64,000 bases of DNA from Bacilli bacterium (GCA_022652945.1 JALCRV010000005.1:83512-147511), one strand, 5' to 3'. Positions 2,151-51,196 are shown, counted from the first letter of the stretch. The notes: a model not told the origin generated them from the letters alone. A program made the numbers and translations.

Positions 2151-4706
2151 TTACTTTACCTTCTTCTTTAATTCGAAAAGGAAATTCAAAGCTTCCATCG
2201 GAGACATCGTCAAAGGATCAAGACTCTTGATGGCCTCCAAGGCTTCCGTTTCTTCTTTGCTGGCTCCGCTCTCTTTAACAGGAGTCTCCAGCATAGTCTT
2301 CAACTCCGAATAATTGATCTTCTTGGCTTCCAAACGTGCGAGTATTTCTTCCGCTCTAACTAAGATCTCACTAGGTAGGCCAGCCAGTTTAGCGACGTTA
2401 ATACCGTAAGACTTATCCATCGGCCCGGGTTCAACTTTATATAAGAAAGTGATCTCCTGCCCTTCTTCTTTAACGGAGACATGGACATTATTCACAGTCG
2501 GCATATCTTGGACTAAACCCGTGATTTCATGATAGTGAGTGGAGAATAGAGTTTTAGCGTGCACGTCTTTTACGATGTATTCGATAATCGACTGAGCTAA
2601 AGCCATGCCATCGTAAGTGGCAGTCCCACGCCCGATTTCATCAAAAATCAGCAGTGAGTTCTGCGTAGCATTTCTTAACGCGCGGTTAGTCTCCGCCATC
2701 TCAACCATGAAAGTCGACTCCCCTTTTATCAAATCATCGGAAGCGCCGATTCTGGTAAAAATCGCATCAAACACATAAAGATCAGCCTTTTCAGCTGGAA
2801 CAAAGCAACCTAGCTGAGCCATAATCACCAGCAAAGCAAATTCTCTCATATAAGTGGATTTACCACCCATGTTCGGTCCGGTGATAATAAGGACTTCCAA
2901 ATCGGAAGGCATCACATAATCATTTGCAACGAAGGCTTTCTCCGGCATCGCTTTTTCGATAACCGGATGTCTCGCTTTCAGAATTTCGATTCTCTTCTCG
3001 CGATTAAAAGTCGGACGGATATAACCATTTTCCGCCGAGACTTCCGCTAAAGAGACAATCACATCGAGTTGGCTGACAGCTTGAGAAAGAAGCTGAATCT
3101 GTTCAGTGTAAGTCTTCACCTTCTCACGGAGTTCTTGGAACATCTTGTATTCCATATCGACTCTGGCTTCTTCCGCGTGCAAGATCTGCGATTCCGCATT
3201 CTTCAGTTCTTCGGTGATGAATCTTTCACCGGTGGTCATCGTCTGCTTACGTATATAACCGAATTCAGGCTTGACCTGACTTAAAGCTCCGTTGGAGACT
3301 TCAATATAATAGCCGAAGATTTTAGAGTATCCGACTTTTAAGGTATGGATACCGGTCTTTTCCTTTTCCTTGGTCTCTAAATCGACCAACCAGGCTTTAC
3401 CATCGGTTGCCATCTTGATGACTTCATCAAGTTTCGAATCATAGCCTAACTTAAAGATGCCGCCTTCCTTAATAGTCGGCGGGCAATCGTTAGCGATGGC
3501 CTTTTCTAAAAGATTGATTAAATCGGTGAAATCAGAAAGACCTGAGGCGATGTCATTGAAATGCGGTGAATTCAGTTTAGCTAAGGATTCTTTTAATAAA
3601 GGAGCGACTTTTAAGGAAGCCTTTAGCTGAAGCATTTCTTTGCCTGAGCAGGAATCGAAGCCGACTCTAGCGATTAAGCGATCGAGATCATAAATCTGTG
3701 CAAGCTGATCTTTCAAGTCTCCTCTGATTAAAAAGTTTTCAATTAAAGTCTGGACTTTATCCAATCTTTCCTCGATTTCCGTTTGATCAGACGAGGGCTC
3801 ATTGATATAAGTCTTTAAGAGTCTTTCCCCCATCGGGGTCTGGCAGTGATTCAATAACCAGTAAAGGCTTCCGTAAGCTCCTTCTCCGGAGATGGATTTA
3901 GTCAGTTCAAGATTAACGCGTGAAGAATGATCTAACGCCAGCACTTTAGTTAGAACTCTCGGCACCGCAGGCTTAAAATAGTCGAGATCTCTCTTCTGAG
4001 TTTCATGAAGATAATTCATTAACTTAGCGACAGCCGTCATTTGTCTTTCATCTTTGACGTATTTATATAAGGGCTCGTAGCTTAAGGAGCCTTCATCATT
4101 ATTAAAATAAGTCAGGCAGATCTTAGTCGCCGTCTTAATTGCATTAATCAAAGCCGCATCCATAGAAGTGGAGACAATTACTTCCTTGGCATCATAATTA
4201 ACCAGTTGAGCAACCACGTCTTGATATGAATGGGAAACATTCATCACATCGATTTCCCCGGTGGAAAGATCAGCGAAAGCCAAGGCATAGGTGAACTTAA
4301 AATCAATCAAGGCCGCAAGATAGTTATTGTCGGAACCTTCAATCTCTAAATTGGCCCCCGGAGTGATAATCTGGATAACATCTCTTTTAACTAGGCCTTT
4401 CGCTAGCTTAGGGTCTTCCATCTGTTCGACGATGCCGACTTTATGCCCGTTATCAAGAAGCTTCTGAACATACGCCAAATAGGCGTGATGAGGAATCCCG
4501 CACATCGGGACTCGATCTTTCTGCCCAGCGGATTTTCCCGTCAGAAAGAGTTGCAATTCCTTTGAAGCGATTTTGGCGTCATCGAAAAACATCTCATAAA
4601 AATCTCCGATGCGATACATAATTATCACATCGGGATGTTTTGATTTAACCTCGAGATACTGCTCAATCATCGGGGTATAAGTGACATTATCTTCTTTCTT
4701 GGCCAT
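2151..4706 (-). CDS. mutS: DNA mismatch repair protein MutS
   Basis: The ORF contains MAKKEDNVTYTPMIEQYLEVKSKHPDVIIMYRIGDFYEMFFDDA and a Walker A motif (GPNMGGKSTYMR). The likely true start is the second Met at complement 4706, since MAKKED is the conserved MutS N-terminus. The track ORF extends 13 codons further, to 4745. Confidence 0.95.
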   Translation of the reverse strand: MAKKEDNVTYTPMIEQYLEVKSKHPDVIIMYRIGDFYEMFFDDAKIASKELQLFLTGKSAGQKDRVPMCGIPHHAYLAYVQKLLDNGHKVGIVEQMEDPKLAKGLVKRDVIQIITPGANLEIEGSDNNYLAALIDFKFTYALAFADLSTGEIDVMNVSHSYQDVVAQLVNYDAKEVIVSTSMDAALINAIKTATKICLTYFNNDEGSLSYEPLYKYVKDERQMTAVAKLMNYLHETQKRDLDYFKPAVPRVLTKVLALDHSSRVNLELTKSISGEGAYGSLYWLLNHCQTPMGERLLKTYINEPSSDQTEIEERLDKVQTLIENFLIRGDLKDQLAQIYDLDRLIARVGFDSCSGKEMLQLKASLKVAPLLKESLAKLNSPHFNDIASGLSDFTDLINLLEKAIANDCPPTIKEGGIFKLGYDSKLDEVIKMATDGKAWLVDLETKEKEKTGIHTLKVGYSKIFGYYIEVSNGALSQVKPEFGYIRKQTMTTGERFITEELKNAESQILHAEEARVDMEYKMFQELREKVKTYTEQIQLLSQAVSQLDVIVSLAEVSAENGYIRPTFNREKRIEILKARHPVIEKAMPEKAFVANDYVMPSDLEVLIITGPNMGGKSTYMREFALLVIMAQLGCFVPAEKADLYVFDAIFTRIGASDDLIKGESTFMVEMAETNRALRNATQNSLLIFDEIGRGTATYDGMALAQSIIEYIVKDVHAKTLFSTHYHEITGLVQDMPTVNNVHVSVKEEGQEITFLYKVEPGPMDKSYGINVAKLAGLPSEILVRAEEILARLEAKKINYSELKTMLETPVKESGASKEETEALEAIKSLDPLTMSPMEALNFLFELKKKVK

Positions 4707-10940: not shown

Positions 10941-11334
10941 GGGGATGTAAAGGTCTCGACAGGTAGGGAGCAGCCTTGAGCGCAGCGGAGTGGCGGCCTA
11001 ACCGCTAAAGCACGATAAATGCCAAACCTATTTATCACAGATATGCGCCGGCTTTTGCCGCCGCTGCTTGCTAGTCTTAACTAGCGCAGCATAAGCGGGA
11101 GGTACACTCCCGAGCATAGTCTAGAGAGTACTCGCTATTCCATTCGGAGTTCCCTAGGCTAACCAAGAACGGATAGTCTCACCTCAAGATAGTCTGAGGC
11201 AGATGAAATTAAGCGCTATCGCCCCTGAGAACAATACGGCCGTTACGAAGCTCAGGGTATTATGACGGCCTAAGCTGTAGCGATCAGGACTTTGCCTTAT
11301 TTGGACAGGGGTTCAACTCCCCTCATCTCCACCA
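10941..11334 (+). ncRNA. ssrA: tmRNA (SsrA)
   Basis: The 5' end GGGGATGTAAAGGTCTCGACAGG resembles B. subtilis ssrA (GGGGACGTTACGGATTCGACAGG). The 3' end has a tRNA-like T-arm and acceptor, GGTTCAACTCCCCTCATCTCCACCA. An internal reading frame follows ATAAAT (GCC AAA ... GCT GCT TGC TAG TCT TAA), which aligns with the B. subtilis tag region and its double stop. A hairpin plus T-run terminator follows at 11345-11364. Confidence 0.9.
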
Positions 11335-11364
11335 GCAAAAATAGCCCGAGAAATCGGGATTTTT

Positions 11365-11802
11365 CTATGATTTGACACTACCGTTTTTTTCACCCGACAG
11401 AACACGTGTCAAAAAGCTATCGACCTTCTCAGAATCAGTCTCAGCACAATGCAAATAATACTTGTTTGTGATCTCAGAAGACGAATGTCCGAGCATATTT
11501 GATACAACCTCTACACTAAAACCACTGTCAACCAAGATGATTGCAAGCGAATGTCTGAACGAATGAAAACGGAAATAAGGAATACCAGCCTTACGACAAC
11601 CATCAGCCACAGCACGATAGACAGTGGTAGCACCAATAGGCAACCTATGATCATAAAAAGAGAAGAAAAGATAATCATCGGGAAGAAGACAATAATCCTT
11701 GATGTACTCATCAATCAACTTGCAAACAAACTCAGGAAGCAAGACTTTGCGCCTTGAAGAAACCGACTTAGGAGAGATAGGCAGGCTTGCCAATCTCAAC
11801 AC
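11365..11802 (-). pseudogene. Tyrosine recombinase (phage integrase) C-terminal catalytic fragment
   Basis: A 145-aa ORF containing the HxxR box (FHSFRHSLA) and a C-terminal GHSSSEITNKYY catalytic-Tyr region. Full-length integrases are about 350-400 aa. No N-terminal SAM-like or core-binding domain precedes it, because a methyltransferase-like ORF overlaps its 5' end. It is adjacent to the ssrA 3' end, a classic integration site. Confidence 0.6.
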
Positions 11803-12115
11803 ACCACCTTATAAACTCGTCCTTGTTTGAGCAAGGAGGACTAGTGATAACGCAATCGAACTGAAACGAAGGAACACATTTAAGGAAATCAAGTTGATCT
11901 TTAGTAGTTGTAACAACCTTGAAGCCCTTAGCACGAAGGACAGAGGCAATGCGAGACGAGCCGTTATCGCAACACTCCCAATAAGTAAGAGAAGGATCTA
12001 GGAAGGGAACTAAGGCTAAGACAGCGTAATCAGGAGTATAAACATCGCCATTTGCGCCGTTTCGCATACGATTAAACATCGCTTGTATCAATCCGCCCTC
12101 ACCCCCTTCCAACAA
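11768..12115 (-). pseudogene. DNA methyltransferase-like N-terminal fragment (tentative)
   Basis: A 115-aa ORF with FDCVITSPPC, which resembles motif IV ([DNS]PP[YFW]) of N6A/N4C methyltransferases preceded by a hydrophobic beta-strand. It is truncated after about 115 aa and abuts and overlaps the integrase fragment. Confidence 0.3.
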
Positions 12116-12221
12116 GCCAACTTTCTTTCTTCTTTGCAGGACACTAAGAAGAAAGCGAAGAACAGCGTGTAATTTATCTAGGCTCTTATTGACAAACGAG
12201 CAAAACCAAGCAATAATAGAA

Positions 12222-13970
12222 TCAAACGACAGGCCGTTGCTTGCCTATTCCCGGACCGATGTCCGGTTTTTTTTTAAGCAAAGACTCATACTTATCCATC
12301 CTTCTAACCTTAAAAAAAGTAGGACGAGCATTTTTCGCCTTAATCCTTCTAGGAAGAGGAGAAACACCGACACCAGTCTTTAAAGGGAAATTAGTATCTT
12401 TTCTCAGCAGAGGAAACAACTTATCATCACAAAGAAAGGCCAAATTTTTTGAATGAAGAAACCCCTCGGAAGTAGTCAAAGAATCAAACACACGGCCCTT
12501 AACAGAATTAGTCTTCAAAAGCCCGAAAGGCTTGATAACATAAACAAAGTGAACACCCCTATAACGCTCACAAGAGAAACCAGCACGAATAAGATCAGGA
12601 TTAGGAACAGAAATAATATCGCCCTTCTTATAAAAACGCTTAGGATTGACACAAACAATTCTTTGATTAGGCATAAAACCACCTCACTCACGAGAAACAA
12701 ACTTCAAATTACGCTTTCTGTCAAAGCCAACAGTGAAAACGGAATTGTCAGAGGGAACAGAAACCTTATAGAAGGTTTGACCTTCCTTGATAAGGAAGCC
12801 TTTTCCTCTCTTGCCGATACGAAGAAGATGATCGTAGACAGAGCGACACTCTTTGGGATTATCTGACATATCCCAGCGACAATAGCCTTTACCCTTCCAA
12901 GAAGAACCGTATCCCATAGAAACACCAGCCTTTCTTTCTAACGGCAGTTATTACGGAAATAAGGCTTACGAGTCCACTTACGATGAACAACCTTACAGCC
13001 TTGACTCAGAGCGGAATGATAATCAGCGAGGAAGTCTCTACGAGCCTTATAATCTTCCTCATTAAACCCTTGAATCTGCTTACGACCATCAGCCTTATAA
13101 ACGATGTCAAACGACCGTAACCGCTTCTGTCCTTTTTTCTTGAAACCAAACATATTTTTTATTTCCTTTCCTTAAAATATGGATTTTTATAGCGATAGAC
13201 TTTCTTGCAGAAGAAACCACCGCCATAATCCCAAATACCACCAAACACATAACCGTACCGAACATCTTTACGAGACTTAAACTTTTCATTCAAAGAAGAA
13301 ACGCATTTGCCATAATCACCAACAATAACAAGATCATCAGTAAGATCACCGCCAATAAGCGAACCAACACCGCAATTTGGTTTTAAAGAATAGCCAGCAC
13401 CGTGATATGTAAAAGACATAAAAGCCACCTTTTTATTTCCAATAAAGACGGATAAACTTCTTATTCTTTGCGTAATGCTCATAGGCTTTCCTAGACCCAG
13501 CAGAATAAGGAGAACGATCTTTCCTTAGATCACCAGCCATAGAGCGACAGTAATCATCAATACCCCAAACACGATCTGTCTTGACTAAGGGAAAACCACG
13601 CTTCTTTCTCTCACGGATAGTAGAGCTAATATCAGCATTTGTATCTCTAATACCCTGAATGTATAGATCAAGGTCACGGCCGTTAAGCTTTGTAATACGA
13701 TTGACATTCATATTTCCATTTCCCCTAGAAAAACTAATGATTCCTCAAAGAAGACCGCAAGTATTCCAAAACCTTATTACGATTCCGAGAGTAGTAATAA
13801 TCCTGAGATCCATAACGATAAACAGTGCCTACCTTCTTACGGTGACCGTTAGCAGTTTTCTGCATTACCCAATGAGGAATCATCCCAGTAACACGCCATC
13901 CGACAGGTGATGTGTACCCCTCCTCTTGGGCACTTAAAGGTGTCCAGGATTCGGGGTACACATCAAACAA
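12222..13970 (-). pseudogene. Tiled, frame-broken coding remnant(s) of unknown function (about 575 aa in total) in the ssrA-adjacent island
   Basis: Six minus-strand ORFs (13734-13970, 13433-13711, 13159-13482, 12938-13153, 12684-12917, 12222-12674) tile the region head to tail. They are separated only by short gaps or frame shifts, and all are basic and rich in K, R, Y and G. This pattern suggests one or two longer genes inactivated by frameshifts and stops. The function is not recognisable. Confidence 0.4.
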
Positions 13971-14179
13971 TTTAAGTCCTTTTAATAATTACCGAACGAT
14001 TGATTTTTCATTGAAGAAAATCAGCCATGCAAATCAATCTTTGAAAACTAAAGCAATTTTAGCAAGCAAAACGCCGACGAATTTGCAAATAGCAACCGAA
14101 AAGTGGAATTTAGATATTCAAAGTTGGTAGTGCCTTTACTCCCTTTAAACGAGAATATCCTCGGGAGGAAAAGATGTAA

Positions 14180-15052
14180 ATGGAAAATATCTTGCAAGTC
14201 AAAGGGCTCTGCAAAAAATACCCCTCGTTCAAGTTGGACAATGTATCCTTTTCTATCGCTAAAGGTGAGATCGCCGGCTTCATCGGCAGAAACGGTGCCG
14301 GAAAAACAACCACTTTAAAGTGCCTAGCTAACCTTGTCCATAAAGATGATGGAGACATTACTATGTTTGGCCTGGATTTTAAGAAGAACGAAGAAGAATG
14401 CAAGACTAAAATAGCTTTTGTTTTAGAAGGTATCGACTATTATCCTAGGGTAAAAATCAAAAAGTTAACCGAGGTAACTAGAAGATATTATCCAAAATGG
14501 GACGAGAAGAAATACCGGAAATATCTTCGTGCTTTCGGTTTAAAAGAAGACTTAACGATGAAGCAGATGTCCAACGGGATGAAGCTCAAATATCAACTCG
14601 CTGTCAGTTTGTCCCATGGAGGAGATCTGTTAATATTCGATGAACCAACCTCCGGTTTAGACCCCATCTCTCGTGATGAGATACAGGAAATCTTCAAAAC
14701 CATTGTCTCTGACAAGAATAAAAGCATTCTTTTTTCCACTCATATCACAACCGACTTGGAGAAATGCGCGGATAAGATCATCTATCTTTCTCATGGTCGA
14801 ATCGTCATGGAGAAATCTAAAGAAGCCTTTCTTGCTTCCTTTAAATTAATCGAGGGTGAGAAAAATCTTCTGGAGCGAAAGGAGTTCATCGCTTCCCTGA
14901 TTTCTTACCGGGTGGAAGAAGACAGATTAGTCGGGCTGGGGTATTCAGATAAAATCATCCACATAAATAACGTAGTGGAACGTGCACCCAATTTGGATGA
15001 AATTATGATTTTCTACGAGAGAGGACAAGAAAATGAAAAATTTGCTTTATAA
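14180..15052 (+). CDS. ABC transporter ATP-binding protein
   Basis: Walker A (GRNGAGKTT), ABC signature (LSNGMKLKYQLAVSL) and Walker B (LLIFDEPTSGLD) motifs are present. An RBS (GGAGG) precedes the ATG. Confidence 0.9.
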   Translation: MENILQVKGLCKKYPSFKLDNVSFSIAKGEIAGFIGRNGAGKTTTLKCLANLVHKDDGDITMFGLDFKKNEEECKTKIAFVLEGIDYYPRVKIKKLTEVTRRYYPKWDEKKYRKYLRAFGLKEDLTMKQMSNGMKLKYQLAVSLSHGGDLLIFDEPTSGLDPISRDEIQEIFKTIVSDKNKSILFSTHITTDLEKCADKIIYLSHGRIVMEKSKEAFLASFKLIEGEKNLLERKEFIASLISYRVEEDRLVGLGYSDKIIHINNVVERAPNLDEIMIFYERGQENEKFAL

Positions 15053-46405: not shown

Positions 46406-46963
46406 TTACTTTCCTAACAGATGATCGTATTCGGCGATTTCTTCTTTATCGGGGACATAGACATAAGGAACATTCCGATAAAGCTCATTGTAATCAAGTC
46501 CGTATCCCATCAAGAACTTATTCTCATTCATGACGGTTCCACAGTAGTCGGTCTTGACCTCGACTTTACGTAAGAAAGTCTTATCGATTAAAGCGACGAT
46601 GATGACTTCTTTCGGATGATATTTCGAAACGATGTAGTTTTTCAGGTAATGCATCGAATAACCGGTATCGATGACATCTTCGACGATTACGACTGTTTTG
46701 TCTTTAACATCGAGAGTCAGATCTTTCTTCAGATTGATAATCCCGGTTGAAGCGGTGCCGGAATAAGAAGAAATCTGGATATAATCAGTTAAGATAGGCA
46801 GGTCGATCTGTTTAATCAGATCCATCATGAAATTCAGCCCGCCTTTCATGACACCGACGAAAACAGGAAGGCTTCCTTCCTTTTTAAGCCTGGTGTTTAA
46901 CTCTCCTCCGATCCTAACGCAGATCTCATGGAGCTCTTTTTCAGAAAGGATGACTTGACGCAT
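46406..46963 (-). CDS. hpt: Hypoxanthine phosphoribosyltransferase
   Basis: The PRPP-binding motif VVIVEDVIDTGYSM is present, and the 185-aa product shows Hpt-like similarity throughout. Confidence 0.85.
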   Translation of the reverse strand: MRQVILSEKELHEICVRIGGELNTRLKKEGSLPVFVGVMKGGLNFMMDLIKQIDLPILTDYIQISSYSGTASTGIINLKKDLTLDVKDKTVVIVEDVIDTGYSMHYLKNYIVSKYHPKEVIIVALIDKTFLRKVEVKTDYCGTVMNENKFLMGYGLDYNELYRNVPYVYVPDKEEIAEYDHLLGK

Positions 46964-47194
46964 AATGATAACCCCCTTCGTTATTGAATAAATTAATTAT
47001 ACGTTATATGAACTATGTTACCACTTGCTTAAGACAGAAGAAAACGCTTACTTAGGTAAAAAAGGAATTTTGTTATGTGGCAAACTAAAAGCAAAATAAT
47101 TTCAGCTTCCAACCGAAGCGACAATATTACCTATGCTTCGCCGGCCTTAATTTATCACCCGACAAGGGATATTTTTAAGTGCTCTGGTGGATTC

Positions 47195-47285
47195 CGTTTA
47201 AGTGTTTGGGTCAATTTCGTTTAAGTGTTTGGGTCGAATATTTTTAAGTGTTTGGGTCAATTCCGTTTAAGTGTTTGGGTGAAGT
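47195..47285. repeat. Four iteron-like direct repeats (~23-bp period) of CGTTTAAGTGTTTGGGTCAAT
   Basis: cgtttaagtgtttgggtcaat (47195), cgtttaagtgtttgggtcgaat (47219), tttttaagtgtttgggtcaat (47242), cgtttaagtgtttgggtgaag (47265), plus a partial TTTTAAGTGC at 47173. They sit in a 1.1-kb non-coding gap between hpt and the UmuC-like gene. Confidence 0.8.
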
Positions 47286-48044
47286 TCCTATGAGTTTAGG
47301 AGCCTGAAGCAGTCTACAAAGATTCTTTTCGACAATAAATCACCACTTCTCTTTATCAAGGAAAGTTTTAAAGATAGCAAGCCTAAAAGTTTCAATTAAT
47401 TTATGTTTATGGGACTAAAGAGCTCGCAGGTAAATGATTCCAGCGGCAAAAGAAAAAATCGCGCCTTAGACATACCGAATATGAGCCGGCCGTTTTAATC
47501 AATTGAGTTGCCTAGCCCTATATAGAAATGCAATCAGTATCTTTCAGATAAATTTCATATAGTACCCTTCAGATTTTGATTTTCGTCGTTAAACGTCCAA
47601 GATGTTTCCCACCAATTTTATGCCATCTTCAAAATTCAAAATCTCTGATACAAAAACCGCTCAGTCCAGACTCATTCATGTTTTCAAATAGTCCGTTTTC
47701 AATGAGCACAGTTGAGCTTTTCAGCGCAAATAGAAAGTGTTTTAGGTACAACAATCAGGTCTCTTTCTAAGTACTTCATTCATTTACATCATCGCTTTCT
47801 TTATATCGTTGTTTTTTTCATTCTTTTTCATCATCAATCAAGTTCTAAAATTTTTTAAACAAATGTCAAAATCCAAAATCCGATTACTAATTAATAACTA
47901 CCATCCTTTCATTTGAGCCTCTTTAAAAGAGACAACTTTCCCAACCTTAAAAGCACCTTGTCAGGGTAAATATTTACATCGGATTTACATCCCCAAAATG
48001 CCCTTCCGGCTTGTTATAATCTTCACTACAAAGAGGACGGGCAG

Positions 48045-49301
48045 ATGAAAGATAGCACTAAAGAAAGGACAATCTTAGCAATCGATTTGAAAAGTTTCTA
48101 CGCCTCGGTCGAATGTATCGACCGGGGGTTAGATCCTTTCTCAACCCCTTTAGTCGTCTGCGATTTAACCCGTGGCCAAGGCACGATTATCCTAGCGGTC
48201 TCCCCTTATCTTAAGACTCTAGGTATCCCTTCTAGATTAAGGCTTTATGACCTGTCGAAAGTGGAAGGGATGATCTACGCCACCCCCAGGATGGAACGTT
48301 ATATTCAAAAAAGCGTCGAGGTCCTTTCGATCTATCTTAATTACGTCAGCGAAGAGGATATGCACGTCTACTCCGTTGATGAGGCCTTCTTAGATGTCAC
48401 TTCCTACCTGAAAGCTGCTAAGACCGATAAAATCGGCTACGCCAGAAGGATTATCAAAGAGATCAGAAAGAAGACTGGCTTAACGGTCACCGCCGGCATC
48501 GGGCCTAATCTTTTCGTCGCTAAAGCCGCGATGGATGTCGAAGCGAAACACAATAAGGACTTCCTCGCCAGTTGGGAAATCAAAGATCTACCTCAAAAAC
48601 TCTGGCCCTTGTCTCCGCTTTCTAAAATGTGGGGCATCGGCAGCCGGATGGAAAAAAGACTTAATGATCTAGGCTTTTATACCGTCGGCGACATCGCTGT
48701 CTCTTCCCCGGACTTTCTAAAGAACAGGTTTGGAGTAATCGGGGAGGAAATCTACCTGCACGCTAATGGAATCGATGATGCTTTAATCCAGAAGCCTTAC
48801 GTTCCCGCTTCCGCTTCCTTGGCGGTCGGACAGACTCTATTTAAAGACTATACCGGCGAGGAGGCTAAATTGATCCTGAATGAATCCCTCGATGAATTGA
48901 TGCTGAGACTTCATAAGGAGAATAAGTTAGCTTCCGGTATCAGTCTCTGGATCGGCTATTCAGTTTATGGAGGATTTGCTAAAGGGATGAGATTTAATCA
49001 GCCGACGGCTAAAAGAGCGGAATTTAAAGAGGCAATCGAAGTCCTCTTCAGCCGCTATTACGACAGCCGCTTTACAATCCGTAACGTCTCCTTAGCGGCT
49101 TACGGGCTTATCGAGAACGATTATGAGCAGCTCTCGTTATTTACTTCACCTGAAAAGAAAGACGATGAGCAGGCCTTAGACGAGGCCTTAAAAGAAGTGA
49201 GAAAGCTTTACGGGCTGAAAAGCCTCTGCCGCGCTTCCGCCTTACTAAATTATTCGACCGTTTTAAGAAGAGACAACCAGATTGGAGGACATCGTAAATG
49301 A
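48045..49301 (+). CDS. Y-family DNA polymerase (UmuC/UvrX-like)
   Basis: ILAIDLKSFYASVECIDRGLDPFSTPLVVCD is the Y-family palm motif (the DxD of the IMS domain). The 418-aa product is followed by a YolD-like gene, as with uvrX-yolD in B. subtilis. Confidence 0.8.
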   Translation: MKDSTKERTILAIDLKSFYASVECIDRGLDPFSTPLVVCDLTRGQGTIILAVSPYLKTLGIPSRLRLYDLSKVEGMIYATPRMERYIQKSVEVLSIYLNYVSEEDMHVYSVDEAFLDVTSYLKAAKTDKIGYARRIIKEIRKKTGLTVTAGIGPNLFVAKAAMDVEAKHNKDFLASWEIKDLPQKLWPLSPLSKMWGIGSRMEKRLNDLGFYTVGDIAVSSPDFLKNRFGVIGEEIYLHANGIDDALIQKPYVPASASLAVGQTLFKDYTGEEAKLILNESLDELMLRLHKENKLASGISLWIGYSVYGGFAKGMRFNQPTAKRAEFKEAIEVLFSRYYDSRFTIRNVSLAAYGLIENDYEQLSLFTSPEKKDDEQALDEALKEVRKLYGLKSLCRASALLNYSTVLRRDNQIGGHRK

Positions 49302-49609
49302 ACGAAAGAGGAATGAAGAAGTGGAGGCCTTTTGCTGCCCTTCCCCAATATAAGGATTACTATAAAGACATGCTTGAAGAACGAAAGAAGGTTCCTAAGC
49401 CCCTTATTTCCGAGGACCAAGCCGAGGAAATCGGCATGGTCTTAGGTAAGTTAGTTAAAGGCGATCGGATTTCCCTTTCATATTTTAATAACGGAAGGAT
49501 TTTGTCTTATGAAGGCGAATTTATCAAGCTTGATATCGCCTCTCGGCTTCTATTCGCTTCGGAGCTTTCCTTAAGTTTTGACAATCTCTTAAAGATAAGA
49601 CAGAATTAG
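49298..49609 (+). CDS. YolD-like protein (putative UmuD-like accessory subunit)
   Basis: A 103-aa protein. The ATGA overlap with the polymerase stop points to translational coupling. The size and position match YolD-family partners of UmuC-like polymerases. Confidence 0.55.
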   Translation: MNERGMKKWRPFAALPQYKDYYKDMLEERKKVPKPLISEDQAEEIGMVLGKLVKGDRISLSYFNNGRILSYEGEFIKLDIASRLLFASELSLSFDNLLKIRQN

Positions 49610-49635
49610 ATTAATTCTGAAAGAAGGAAATAAAA

Positions 49636-49917
49636 ATGAGAACTAAGAAAACAGATAAGACAACTTTAAATAAAAAGATACCCTTAAGGCCTTTGACTCC
49701 AAAGATCCTGATCGATCATCGGACTGGCAAAGTGCCCGTCTGGGCTAGCGTTAAAGAAAAGCAGGAGATGATTCTGATCCATGAGAAAGAAAAGAACTGC
49801 TACACGTTTTATCTTAAGGATTTCCCCGATCAAAGAATCTCCTTCCCTAACGAGGAAGAAGCGACAAAGCAAGCTGATGAATACTTAAAAGAAGGCTATA
49901 AGGTAACAAGGATTTAA
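49636..49917 (+). CDS. Hypothetical protein (93 aa)
   Basis: A good RBS (AAGGAA) is present. A bidirectional hairpin terminator follows at 49926-49950. Confidence 0.4.
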   Translation: MRTKKTDKTTLNKKIPLRPLTPKILIDHRTGKVPVWASVKEKQEMILIHEKEKNCYTFYLKDFPDQRISFPNEEEATKQADEYLKEGYKVTRI

Positions 49918-49964: not shown

Positions 49965-50753
49965 TTAACGTTCTTCGAGGATCTGCTTTTTCTTTTTCTC
50001 GAATTCTTCCTGGGTGATTACACCACGATCCAACAGGTCTTTATAAGATTCAATGGCTTTGGCTTTCCTTAATTCCTCTTCCGGATCGGAAGGTTTATTC
50101 CCGCTCTGAGGGATGAAGACAGAGTTATTGATCTCGATTCCTCTAGTCAGAAGAAGAATCAGGACCGCGAAGATAACCTGGGTCAAAAGATTGCCGATAT
50201 ATAAAACAATCTGCGCATTATCGTTCATAACCCCGGTCATCATCGAAAGGGCTTGGATGATCACGGCTAAGGAAGAAGAGACTAAAAGAAGGATACCGGA
50301 GATTTTGATGATTCTTAGGATATCCGCAGTATTCTTCCCGCAGATAAAAATGATTGAACTGATGACTAAGACAGCGATGAAAAGGAAACTGAAGGCGGAA
50401 AGGACCCAGGAGATAACTAAGAGCACTGAGTCGAGAGAGTTAACGACGCCGGCAAAGTTCGTATCAGCAATTTGTGCGTTTTTCGAGGAAAGGGTCAAAA
50501 CGGAGAAAATCGCAAAGAAATACGAAATCAGATTCATGACAGTCGGAATCCGCGGATCTTTAAATTCCACTTTATCAGCGATGATAAGAAGCACCATAAT
50601 CGCCAAGGACAAAGAAGACGAATAGATGGTAAGGCGAGTATGGTTAACTGAAGAGTAGATGGCGGCGGAGATTATGACAAAAATCAGCTGGATAACGAAA
50701 GCCAGAATAGCAACATAAAAATACTTTGAATCTTTTTTAAAAGCTATTTTCAT
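49965..50753 (-). CDS. Multi-pass membrane protein with a C-terminal SHOCT domain
   Basis: About 6 hydrophobic helices are followed by the C-terminus ESYKDLLDRGVITQEEFEKKKKQIL (SHOCT signature: L.kLk.LkD.GvIT.EEFe.kK..LL). Confidence 0.65.
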   Translation of the reverse strand: MKIAFKKDSKYFYVAILAFVIQLIFVIISAAIYSSVNHTRLTIYSSSLSLAIMVLLIIADKVEFKDPRIPTVMNLISYFFAIFSVLTLSSKNAQIADTNFAGVVNSLDSVLLVISWVLSAFSFLFIAVLVISSIIFICGKNTADILRIIKISGILLLVSSSLAVIIQALSMMTGVMNDNAQIVLYIGNLLTQVIFAVLILLLTRGIEINNSVFIPQSGNKPSDPEEELRKAKAIESYKDLLDRGVITQEEFEKKKKQILEER

Positions 50754-50773: not shown

Positions 50774-51196
50774 TTAAAGACCGAGCAACTTCTTCTTTTT
50801 CGCTTCGTATTCTTCCTGGGTGATAACACCTTTATCAAGAAGATCCTTATATTCCTTTAAGGCCTGAGCGGTGCTCTCTTCGGTGGCAACCTGGGAAGCT
50901 TTGGACGGAGTCGTATTAACGACGCTATCGGTATCCCAGTTGGTGATCGGCAGCCCATCGGAGTCTTTCGCTCCGCCGGTGATAATCATGATCAAGTCAA
51001 TCAAAGCACCGATGCCGAATAAGCCGAAGGTGAAGATATAAAGGACCCCGAGTCCGATCTTTCCTTCGTAGAACTTATGGACACCAATCTCCCCTAAGAA
51101 GAGACAGAGGAGCAAATCGACTAAGCGCGACTTAGGAGAAATTGTCGCCTTTCCCGGCATCGGATAGACTTCCTGCATTTCATCCATAATCATCAC
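50774..51196 (-). CDS. TM2-domain protein with a C-terminal SHOCT domain
   Basis: The TM2 motif is present (LGEIGVHKFYEGKIGLGVLYIFTFGLFGIGALIDLIMII), followed by LKEYKDLLDKGVITQEEYEAKKKKLL (SHOCT). Confidence 0.7.
   Translation of the reverse strand: MMIMDEMQEVYPMPGKATISPKSRLVDLLLCLFLGEIGVHKFYEGKIGLGVLYIFTFGLFGIGALIDLIMIITGGAKDSDGLPITNWDTDSVVNTTPSKASQVATEESTAQALKEYKDLLDKGVITQEEYEAKKKKLLGL

What the first reader, a model, noticed from the sequence alone, without database searches (positions are those of the whole stretch)
47170..47290. Four iteron-like 23-bp direct repeats in a 1.1-kb non-coding gap upstream of a UmuC-like/YolD-like module
Regularly spaced direct repeats of CGTTTAAGTGTTTGGGTCAAT, with a helical-phase-compatible ~23-bp period, resemble plasmid or phage replication-origin iterons or arrayed transcription-factor sites. 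They lie beside a translesion-polymerase pair (UmuC-like plus YolD-like) that in B. subtilis is carried on the SPbeta prophage. Together with the trailing 93-aa ORF this may be a small mobile or regulated module. I found no Cheo-box (GAAC-N4-GTTC) upstream of the polymerase gene.
Basis: seen in the sequence. Interest (0 to 1): 0.5.

Follow-up and report, generated by a model that had tools for sequence, protein, structure and literature searches.

The report
Orphan repeat array from mobile cassette
The repeats are real, but they have no link to the neighbouring DNA-repair polymerase genes: they are a leftover piece of the non-coding control region of a small mobile gene cassette that, in related uncultured bacteria, carries a candidate anti-phage ATPase gene missing here.

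Summary
The array is real: five head-to-tail units with an exact 23-bp period at 47174-47288. Four have the identical 15-nt core TTTAAGTGTTTGGGT; the first is degenerate. The 8-nt spacers vary.

It is not tied to the UmuC/YolD pair. Two relatives keep the same gene order but have only a 377-394 bp gap with no repeats. The array therefore lies in a lineage-specific insert of about 750 bp.

About 300 bp of that insert (palindrome, array, flank, block B) matches non-coding backbone DNA of small cassettes in other uncultured Bacilli. Each cassette carries one AAA_14+DUF4143 ATPase-nuclease gene (PADLOC candidate defence PDC-S01). They sit at tRNA 3' ends, flanked by an 8-bp direct repeat, singly or in tandem, often with the gene deleted.

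In one intact relative (L032) a four-unit array aligns in register with the window's, also at 23 bp. It lies on a near-consensus promoter 25 bp before the ATPase gene.

Best reading: an orphaned, phased protein-binding (operator-type) array of a decayed cassette.

There is no Rep gene, DnaA box, plasmid or phage match, RNA structure signal or inverted partner. Moderate interest.

The parts
47174..47288 (+). Five head-to-tail 23-bp units: U1 47174 (degenerate), then U2 47197, U3 47220, U4 47243 and U5 47266 with the exact core TTTAAGTGTTTGGGT, each followed by a variable 8-nt spacer. Read on the minus strand (ACCCAAACACTTAAA) they point toward the palindrome and the HPRT gene.
   Evidence: U2-U5 align in register with the four 23-bp units of L032. 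The same exact core occurs in L012, L014, L026 and L027-L031.
47152..47172 (.). Imperfect palindrome TTATCACCCGACAAGGGATAT abutting unit 1. It is the homologue of the near-perfect TTATCAACCGTTTCGGTGATAA found next to the units in L012, L026 and L031.
   Evidence: window 47152-47217 matches L012 1896->1831 and L026 7869->7805 at about 70% identity.
47289..47351 (+). Flank X after the last unit. It is homologous to L032 3416->3355 and contains one degenerate copy of the cassette family's 33-mer motif (AAATCACCACTTCTC, 47337-47351, versus TTGCCACTTT).
   Evidence: (window 47197-47348 matches L032 3508->3355, 62% over 157 nt, E 3e-5).
47352..47455 (+). Block B, whose conserved core is TTATGGGACTAAAGAGCTCGCAGGTAA. 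In the cassettes this segment directly abuts the 8-bp recombination core at the tRNA 3' end.
   Evidence: L012 2134->2053, 66% over 82 nt, E 4e-6; L026 6180->6075, 64% over 106 nt, E 3e-7; L027-L032.
47055..47813 (.). Window-specific segment of about 750 bp that is absent from the syntenic relatives. Only 47152-47455 has detectable homologues.
   Evidence: native homology stops at 47054 and resumes at 47814; no hits for the two remaining parts.
46973..47054 (-). Native HPRT upstream region with the conserved motif AAGAAAACGCTTACTT (47038-47053). It is present in relatives that lack the array.
47814..48044 (+). Native upstream region of the Y-family polymerase gene: TTACATCCCCAA at 47985, and an extended -10 TGTTATAAT at 48012-48020. 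It is conserved in L019 and L020.
46406..46963 (-). HPRT-like phosphoribosyltransferase gene (a neighbour, not part of the element).
48045..49917 (+). Y-family polymerase gene, YolD gene and 93-aa ORF (neighbours, conserved in synteny, not part of the element).

Best explanation
The array is an orphaned copy of a phased protein-binding array. It belongs to the conserved non-coding backbone of a family of small mobile cassettes, each of which carries one AAA_14+DUF4143 ATPase-nuclease gene (PADLOC candidate defence system PDC-S01).

Shown by homology:
- Window 47152-47455 (palindrome, units, flank X, block B) is collinear with cassette backbone DNA from other uncultured Bacilli.
- In those genomes the cassettes sit at the 3' end of tRNA-Trp or at a tRNA 3' fragment, bounded by an 8-bp direct repeat (CCCTGCCA). 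They occur singly or in tandem and carry no integrase.
- The cassettes repeatedly lose their gene by deletion.
- In the intact relative L032, a four-unit array with the same 23-bp period lies on the promoter of the cassette gene. The proximal unit falls between -35 and -10.

Inferred:
- The units are operator-type sites on which a sequence-specific DNA-binding protein assembles side by side to control the cassette promoter. The most likely binder is the cassette's own Orc1/Cdc6-like AAA+ protein; the alternative is a regulator that travels with it.
- The window's lineage acquired a cassette, or a fragment of one, between the HPRT and polymerase promoters. The gene and promoter were then lost, and the array grew from 1-2 units to 5 by unequal exchange. 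A 69-bp higher-order repeat is still visible.
- Here the array is probably inert. At most it acts as a decoy site if a related cassette exists elsewhere in the genome.
For: (1) The array is absent from the syntenic relatives L019 and L020, whose gaps are 377 and 394 bp.

(2) The identical 15-mer core at a 23-bp period occurs in L012 and L014, where the flanking homology is only 62-70%. All seven columns that vary among the six exact units fall in the 8-nt spacer (P about 7.5e-4). TTTAAG is invariant in 11 units from three lineages.

(3) L026 shows the simple form: tRNA-Trp ending in CCCTGCCA, then B, a terminator (D1), three 33-mers, the 447-aa AAA gene, two units, the palindrome, and a second CCCTGCCA followed by the native tRNA-downstream sequence. 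L012 and L027-L031 hold tandem elements with deleted genes.

(4) L032 has four units at 3508, 3485, 3462 and 3439 (exactly 23 bp apart). They align in register with window U2-U5 and overlap a TTGGCA-16-TATAAT promoter (11 of 12 matches, with TG) 25 bp before the start codon of the 391-aa AAA gene.

(5) Phased direct repeats on or upstream of the promoter are a general feature of this gene family. A 33-34 bp period was seen in four further contexts, including ICE cargo.

(6) The cargo proteins are PDC-S01. An AlphaFold model (pLDDT 85.8) resembles the archaeal AAA+ proteins PABY2304 and SSO1545 and then Orc1/Cdc6, ORC and RFC.

(7) The same 447-aa gene occurs at 84-98% nucleotide identity in four different genomic contexts, so it is mobile.
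Against: - The window has no AAA_14/DUF4143 gene, and no promoter-like site follows the array toward HPRT. A function here is therefore not shown.
- In L012, L026 and L031 the units lie downstream of the cassette gene, next to the palindrome, not on a promoter. The operator role rests on one locus (L032), whose core is a variant (TTTAAGTrTTTTTGC).
- Nothing tested shows that any protein binds the units.
- No flanking direct repeat, tRNA fragment or left-arm homology could be found around the window's insert. Its borders and its mode of arrival are unknown.
- Only two independent genome lineages besides the window carry the motif.
Confidence: 0.55

Rival explanations
1. Recombination-accessory sites. 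The units and the palindrome would be arm-type or directionality-factor binding sites that help a trans-acting tyrosine integrase excise and integrate the cassette at tRNA 3' ends. The window would then hold a gene-less, CIME-like integrated copy.
For: In L012, L026 and L031 the units and palindrome lie 115-220 bp from an 8-bp crossover-like core. That core is flanked by imperfect inverted repeats (GTTCG..CATG | CCCTGCCA | AATGGGTTATCTGCGAAC), and block B abuts it on the other side. The elements are bounded by direct repeats at a tRNA 3' end, occur in tandem and have no integrase of their own.
Against: The distance from the core to the units varies (about 150 and 220 bp). In L032 the units are on the other side of the core, on a promoter. 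The copy number varies (1, 2, 4, 5). A 15-bp core at a 23-bp period is larger than typical arm-type sites (7-11 bp; from general knowledge). No integrase was found in any locus. The window shows no core or duplication.
Confidence: 0.15
2. A neutral minisatellite. A single backbone motif was amplified by slippage or unequal crossing-over in the window's lineage, and the extra copies have no function.
For: The copy number ranges from 1 (L031) through 2 (L012, L026) to 5 (window). The window shows a 69-bp higher-order repeat: 47169-47226 versus 47238-47295 is 83% identical, more than at offsets of 23 or 46 bp. The gene that the array serves elsewhere is absent here.
Against: The spacers have diverged (3-5 of 8 positions) while the four cores are identical, and the core is identical across genomes whose flanks are only about 65% identical. 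The exact 23-bp period is kept in two diverged arrays, the window's and L032's.
Confidence: 0.15
3. Iteron-type origin of replication of an integrated plasmid or phage. A Rep initiator would bind the repeats and melt adjacent DNA.
For: Four to five contiguous direct repeats at a period of about 22-23 bp is the classic iteron layout. The cassette protein's fold is nearest the Orc1/Cdc6 initiator clade.
Against: No rep, par, relaxase or phage gene was found among the annotated window genes (ORFs at about 24.4-35 kb and 58-63 kb were not scanned). No DnaA box lies within the gap. The flanks are not unusually AT-rich (0.36 GC against a local background of about 0.35-0.45). No match was found in 72,556 plasmids, 50,697 phages or IMG/VR. 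Syntenic relatives lack the repeats. In L032 the array sits on a promoter.
Confidence: 0.07
4. A host transcription-factor array that regulates the adjacent HPRT or polymerase genes, for example a LytTR-type activator, since such regulators use direct repeats spaced about 21-22 bp apart.
For: The array lies between two divergent promoters. On the minus strand the unit reads ACACTTAAA, which matches 7 of 9 positions of the LytTR consensus recalled from memory.
Against: The array is not conserved in relatives that have the same genes and promoters. It lies 210 bp from the HPRT start and 757 bp from the polymerase start. No promoter-like site lies next to it. The period is 23 bp, not 21-22, and the conserved core is 15 nt, not 9.
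Confidence: 0.05
5. An RNA-level element: the array is transcribed as part of a structured non-coding RNA or a protein or sRNA sponge.
For: The core has no C on the plus strand, so an RNA copy would be an unstructured repeat of a U/G-rich motif.
Against: Rfam has no family here, even at E<=10. Folding energies are no better than for shuffled sequence on either strand (z -0.54, +0.77, +0.76, +0.82). No promoter or terminator brackets the array.
Confidence: 0.03

Closest known systems
Iteron arrays of theta-type plasmids and lambdoid phage origins (for example R6K, pPS10, P1, and Rep_3 replicons of Firmicutes); from general knowledge
   Same: Three to seven head-to-tail direct repeats with a period of about 22 bp. 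Each has a conserved core and a variable spacer and is bound side by side by one protein. Copy number varies.
   Different: No initiator gene, no DnaA boxes, no AT-rich unwinding element and no plasmid or phage homology. The homologous array in L032 overlaps a promoter of an ATPase-nuclease gene, not an origin.
Promoter-overlapping tandem repeats that serve as autoregulatory operators on mobile elements (for example pSK41 parC, four 20-bp tandem repeats bound by ParR); from general knowledge
   Same: Contiguous direct repeats of about 20 bp lying on the promoter of the gene they travel with. They are carried on a mobile element.
   Different: No partition genes. The presumed binder is an AAA+ protein with a PD-(D/E)XK domain, or is unknown. 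The window's copy has lost both the promoter and the gene.
Origin recognition boxes bound by archaeal Orc1/Cdc6
   Same: The cassette protein's predicted fold is nearest the initiator and clamp-loader AAA+ clade (archaeal PABY2304 and SSO1545, then Orc1/Cdc6 bound to origin DNA). Such proteins recognise repeated DNA boxes.
   Different: This is fold-level resemblance only (TM 0.27-0.5, 12-16% identity). There is no evidence of replication, and the protein has an extra nuclease-like C-terminal domain.
CIMEs (cis-mobilisable elements) and other gene-poor integrative islets at tRNA genes; from general knowledge
   Same: Small elements bounded by short direct repeats at a tRNA 3' end, with no recombinase of their own. 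They pile up in tandem and are prone to internal deletion.
   Different: About 0.6-2 kb with a single cargo gene. No parent ICE or integrase has been identified. The window's copy is not at a tRNA and shows no flanking repeat.
LytTR-regulated promoters (AgrA, ComE, PlnC); from general knowledge
   Same: Direct repeats about two helical turns apart, immediately upstream of or overlapping a weak -35.
   Different: The period is 23 bp, not 21-22. The core is 15 nt, not 9. There are up to five copies rather than two. No LytTR gene is linked to any array-bearing locus.

Membership tests
Iteron-type replication origin | Three or more direct repeats of about 17-22 bp at a period of about 22 bp | tested here: met
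   Five units with an exact 23-bp period.
Iteron-type replication origin | A cognate Rep initiator gene adjacent to or near the repeats | tested here: not met
   No ORF of 65 aa or more lies in the gap. Pfam scans of neighbouring and most other window genes show no Rep, primase or helicase loader. The small ORFs in the gap hit no family.
Iteron-type replication origin | An adjacent AT-rich unwinding region and DnaA boxes | tested here: not met
   No TTATCCACA box with up to 1 mismatch lies between 45878 and 62974. GC content around the array is 0.36, close to the local background.
Iteron-type replication origin | Sequence relatives on plasmids or phages | tested here: not met
   No match in PLSDB, INPHARED or IMG/VR. 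The few weak hits were chance or unrelated short-period repeats.
Backbone of the PDC-S01 (AAA_14+DUF4143) mobile cassette family defined here | Collinear homology to the cassette's non-coding segments (units, flank X, block B, palindrome) | tested here: met
   Window 47152-47455 matches L012, L026, L031 and L032 (E 3e-5 to 1e-8).
Backbone of the PDC-S01 (AAA_14+DUF4143) mobile cassette family defined here | Presence of the AAA_14+DUF4143 cargo gene | tested here: not met
   tblastn and tblastx of the three cargo proteins against the window give no hit. Gene-less derivatives do exist in the family (L012 second element, L031 second element).
Backbone of the PDC-S01 (AAA_14+DUF4143) mobile cassette family defined here | Bounded by the 8-bp core (CCCTGCCA-like) at a tRNA 3' end or fragment | tested here: not met
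   The window has no tRNA other than the tmRNA. The sequence to the right of B is no more tRNA-like than shuffled sequence. No left-arm homology was found.
Promoter-overlapping operator array | Units overlap or abut a sigma-70 promoter of a downstream gene | tested here: inconclusive
   Met in L032: TTGGCA-16-TATAAT at 3491-3518, with the proximal unit at 3494-3508. Not met in the window, nor in L026, where the units follow the gene.
Promoter-overlapping operator array | Specific binding by a regulator | not testable with these tools
   This needs EMSA or footprinting. The only indirect support is the Orc1/Cdc6-like fold of the cargo protein.
Transposon end with multiple transposase sites (Tn7, Mu, Tn402, IS21 type) | Inverted copies of the site at the other end, with the terminal site at the tip | tested here: not met
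   No inverted copy with up to 3-4 mismatches in the window or in L012/L026. The units lie 115 bp or more from the element end.
att-site arm of a tyrosine-integrase element | Repeats at a fixed distance from the crossover core, with an integrase present | tested here: not met
   The distance varies and the position differs in L032. No integrase was found in any locus.
Known structured RNA family | A match to an Rfam covariance model, or folding energy beyond that of shuffled sequence | tested here: not met

The most novel reading that the evidence does not exclude
PDC-S01 genes (an AAA+ ATPase of the Orc1/Cdc6-like clade fused to a PD-(D/E)XK nuclease) may be self-mobile, integrase-less cassettes rather than, or as well as, defence genes. 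On this reading the phased direct repeats that travel with every copy (33-bp or 23-bp period) are assembly sites for the ATPase. The bound protein would both autoregulate its promoter and direct site-specific insertion next to tRNA 3' ends. The window's array would then be a footprint of such an event.
Probability: 0.08. Interest if true: 0.75.

Novelty: new member of a known kind. Interest (0 to 1): 0.35.

Why it matters
For this window the result is mostly a clarification. The repeats do not mark a replicon or an SOS-type control region of the translesion polymerase. They mark a scar of horizontal transfer in an intergenic region that is also a synteny breakpoint among relatives.

The wider value lies in what the scar led to. 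PDC-S01 is reported as the fourth most common candidate defence system in prokaryotes and has not been tested experimentally (PMC12988326). In every context examined here its genes carry phased direct repeats on their promoter. They also occur as small, tandemly accreting cassettes at tRNA genes without a recombinase.

That gives a concrete cis-element and a predicted binder to test for a very abundant gene family of unknown function. It also cautions that part of the family's enrichment in defence islands could reflect its own mobility.

Tried and rejected
- **Rfam.** The gathering-threshold scan of the whole window and the E<=10 scan of the gap found only the tmRNA far away.
- **RNA folding.** Folding the array and the whole insert on both strands gave energies no better than shuffled sequence.
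- **Plasmid, phage and E. coli searches.** The gap and the array alone gave nothing relevant.
- **Two-unit pattern scans.** GTDB representative genomes gave 0 hits and IMG/VR gave 0. A looser viral scan found only 10-12 bp short-period repeats (L021, L022), judged unrelated. L013 from the metagenome scan is an 8-bp low-complexity repeat in a high-GC organism, also unrelated.
- **HPRT homologue loci at 51-64% identity.** No comparable array.
- **Transposon-end idea.** No inverted copy of the core anywhere.
- **tRNA remnant to the right of block B.** The alignment scores no better than shuffles. ARAGORN finds no tRNA.
- **Left-arm (D4) homology in window 47040-47151.** Not above shuffles. The remaining insert DNA (47055-47151 and 47456-47813) matches nothing fetched.
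- **Terminal inverted repeats or a target duplication around the insert.** Only a 7-bp TTAGGTA repeat and a 28-nt 75% repeat were seen, and neither is convincing.
- **Small ORFs in the gap and across the cassette junction.** No Pfam or PHROG family. The 58-aa junction peptide only retrieved further cassette junctions, which was nevertheless useful.
- **Cassette junction, block B and AAA proteins in viral contigs.** None.
- **Literature search for the motif.** Only coincidental primer matches.
- **Cheo box and DnaA box scans.** None in the gap.
- **My earlier model.** I first read the window as an integrated element with its interior deleted, in the order A...B. The L032-type layout (B, X, units, promoter), with which the window is directly collinear, replaced that model.

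Full report
**1. The observation**

Region 47170-47290 does hold a regular tandem array. Tandem Repeats Finder gives period 23, 4.2 copies and score 138. The 15-mer TTTAAGTGTTTGGGT occurs without mismatch at 47197, 47220, 47243 and 47266. A degenerate fifth copy starts at 47174. That gives five units at exactly 23 bp, and no other match at up to 3 mismatches on either strand of the window.

A 69-bp higher-order repeat, covering units 1-2 versus units 4-5, shows that the array grew by block duplication.

The array lies in a 1081-bp gap between a minus-strand HPRT-like gene and a plus-strand operon of a Y-family polymerase gene, a YolD gene and a 93-aa ORF. An independent assembly has the identical sequence.

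**2. What it is not**

- *Not a known RNA.* Rfam has no family here, and folding on either strand is no better than shuffled sequence.
- *Not an SOS operator.* There is no Cheo box in the gap.
- *Not an origin of replication.* There is no DnaA box in the gap, no ORF of 65 aa or more, no consensus promoter or terminator next to the array, and no Rep, partition, relaxase or phage gene among the window genes scanned.
- *Not related to any catalogued replicon.* Nothing similar exists in 72,556 plasmids, 50,697 phages, IMG/VR or the GTDB representative genomes.
- *Not a transposon end.* No inverted copy of the core exists.

**3. It is a lineage-specific insertion, unrelated to the polymerase pair**

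The source is an uncultured Bacilli MAG. Two relatives, with HPRT 75% and 79% identical, keep the order YitT, Glu/Gln-tRNA synthetase, SHOCT, small ORF, YolD, IMS, then HPRT. Their IMS/HPRT gaps are 377 and 394 bp and contain no 23-mer.

Only the two ends of the window's gap are homologous to those gaps. These are 46973-47054, which holds a conserved AAGAAAaCGCTTaCTT motif, and 47814-48034, which holds the conserved polymerase promoter. About 750 bp (47055-47813) is therefore specific to the window.

A third relative (81% identical HPRT) has Tex next to HPRT instead. This intergenic region is thus also a synteny breakpoint.

The polymerase/YolD pair belongs to the conserved chromosomal neighbourhood. 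The 'SPbeta-like mobile module' idea is not supported.

**4. Where the array comes from**

A two-unit pattern scan of JGI metagenomes found the identical core at a 23-bp period in one other organism (L012 and L014). The similarity extends to three further segments:

- a palindrome before the first unit;
- the flank after the last unit;
- an 82-106 nt block B.

Following the neighbouring gene and a junction peptide through the protein collection gave more loci. Together they define a family of small cassettes.

*The simple form (L026).* The layout is tRNA-Trp ending in CCCTGCCA, then block B, a terminator (D1), three 33-bp repeats, a promoter, a 447-aa AAA_14+DUF4143 gene, two 23-mers, the palindrome, about 220 bp of spacer, and a second CCCTGCCA followed by the native tRNA-downstream sequence. 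This is about 2 kb bounded by an 8-bp direct repeat, with no integrase.

*Tandem and decayed forms.* L012 holds two such elements in tandem, the second with its gene deleted. L027-L031 hold a tandem pair at a tRNA 3' fragment. There the second element has lost its gene and keeps one unit.

*Mobility of the cargo gene.* The same 447-aa gene with its 33-mers occurs at 84-98% nucleotide identity in four different genomic contexts.

*Identity of the cargo.* The cargo proteins (391, 408 and 447 aa) are too diverged to align by BLASTP, but all are PADLOC PDC-S01. PDC-S01 is an abundant, untested candidate defence family: an ATPase fused to a PD-(D/E)XK domain (PMC12988326, PMC3424549).

**5. The informative relative (L032)**

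In L032 the order is core, B, D1, two 33-mer motifs, four 23-mers, promoter, then a 391-aa AAA gene. The four units start at 3508, 3485, 3462 and 3439, exactly 23 bp apart, with a variant core TTTAAGTrTTTTTGC.

Window 47197-47433 is collinear with L032 3508->3124 and lacks only D1. Window units 2-5 align in register with the four L032 units.

The proximal L032 unit lies between the -35 and -10 of a TTGGCA-16-TATAAT promoter (11 of 12 matches, with an upstream TG) 25 bp before the gene's start codon.

Phased repeats on the promoter are general in this gene family. Three copies at 33-34 bp were seen in four further contexts, one of them cargo of a conjugative element.

An AlphaFold model of the 447-aa type (pLDDT 85.8) is closest to the archaeal AAA+ proteins PABY2304 and SSO1545, and then to Orc1/Cdc6, ORC and RFC. 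These are AAA+ proteins that typically pair the ATPase with a DNA-binding winged helix.

**6. Constraint on the units**

Across six exact units from two genomes whose flanks are only 62-70% identical, all seven variable columns fall in the 8-nt spacer (P about 7.5e-4). TTTAAG and G14 are invariant in 11 units from three lineages. The 23-bp period is kept without any indel in two arrays that are only 62% identical. This pattern points to a protein-binding site with constrained spacing rather than a recent neutral duplication.

**7. Most likely mechanism**

*Shown.* The array is part of a roughly 300-bp fragment of PDC-S01 cassette backbone, inserted in this lineage only.

*Inferred.* The units are operator-type sites on which a cassette-associated DNA-binding protein, most economically the Orc1/Cdc6-like ATPase itself, assembles in a phased row to control the cassette promoter. 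In the window the promoter and gene are gone, so the array is an orphan. It is probably inert, or at most a decoy.

*Weak points.*
- The operator position is seen in only one locus.
- In L012, L026 and L031 the units lie after the gene, beside the palindrome.
- Binding has not been tested.
- The borders of the window's insert, and how it arrived, could not be defined.

**8. Rivals**

- Recombination-accessory sites near the att core: 0.15.
- Neutral minisatellite expansion: 0.15.
- Iteron-type origin: 0.07.
- Host regulator of HPRT or the polymerase: 0.05.
- RNA element: 0.03.

**9. Verdict**

The feature is a new member of a known kind, namely a cis-acting repeat array of a mobile element, present here as a relic. 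Interest in the window itself is moderate to low.

The by-product is the more interesting lead: phased promoter repeats, and tRNA-targeted, integrase-less cassettes, of the very common PDC-S01 family.

Noticed in passing
L026 6297-6379; L033 2384-2462; L043 1375-1455; L047 about 1430-1500; L032 3425-3508: Every PDC-S01 (AAA_14+DUF4143) gene examined has 2-4 phased direct repeats on or just upstream of its promoter. Four lineages use a 33-34 bp period with cores such as AAAGTGGCAATTAA, AGGTGCAAATAAT or TAAAATTGCACAATT. One lineage uses a 23-bp period. I did not find this described in the papers searched.
   Followed up: partly
L012 43-2664; L026 6019-8125; L031 500-3040: Small cassettes of 0.6-2 kb are integrated at the tRNA-Trp 3' end or at a tRNA 3' fragment. 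They are bounded by CCCTGCCA, sit in tandem, often have the cargo gene deleted, and carry no integrase within 5-10 kb. The same 447-aa gene is found at four different loci at 84-98% nucleotide identity.
   Followed up: partly
window 10941-14180: The tmRNA gene (10941-11334) is followed directly by a split tyrosine-integrase ORF (11365-11802 and 11768-12115, minus strand) and about 2 kb of gene-poor DNA. This looks like a decayed island integrated at ssrA.
   Followed up: no
window 47038-47053 (also L015, L019, L020): The motif AAGAAAaCGCTTaCTT, about 75-90 bp upstream of the HPRT start codon, is conserved in four lineages with otherwise diverged intergenic DNA. It is possibly a regulatory site for the HPRT gene.
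   Followed up: no
window 47984-48020: The upstream region of the Y-family polymerase gene is conserved in relatives (TTACATCCCCAA ... CTTGyTATAAT, with an extended -10) and has no LexA/Cheo box. Control of this UmuC-like/YolD pair in this lineage is unexplained.
   Followed up: partly
window 47571-47583 (+), 47632-47644 (-), 47866-47880 (-): The motif GATTTTGrATTTT occurs three times in the gap. One copy is in the native region upstream of the polymerase gene and two, as an inverted pair, are in the window-specific insert.
   Followed up: no
window 49636-49917: The last 20 residues of the 93-aa ORF after YolD give a weak, below-cutoff match to the RNA polymerase inhibitor family (PF16857, E 9e-4; phrog_1307, E 7e-3). 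Small ORFs of 85 and 43 aa occupy the same position in L020 and L019.
   Followed up: no
window 46964 region versus L015-L018: The HPRT upstream intergenic region is a synteny breakpoint. The closest HPRT relative (81% identical) has Tex and an AbiEii gene there instead of the polymerase/YolD block.
   Followed up: partly
window 49965-50753 and 50774-51196: Two adjacent SHOCT-domain genes share a 70-nt, 73% identical repeat at their 3' ends (49976-50045 and 50782-50851). They are probably tandem paralogues.
   Followed up: no
L025 1-2700: One of the organisms that carries the cassette gene has a type II-A CRISPR-Cas locus: Cas1, Cas2 and Csn2, plus an array with a 66-bp period and about 22 repeats.
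   Followed up: no
L021 6290-6365: A phage contig has five or six 12-bp repeats (GGTCAAGTGTTT) next to an HTH-like gene, an origin-like array. It shares only the decamer used as the search pattern and is judged unrelated.
   Followed up: no
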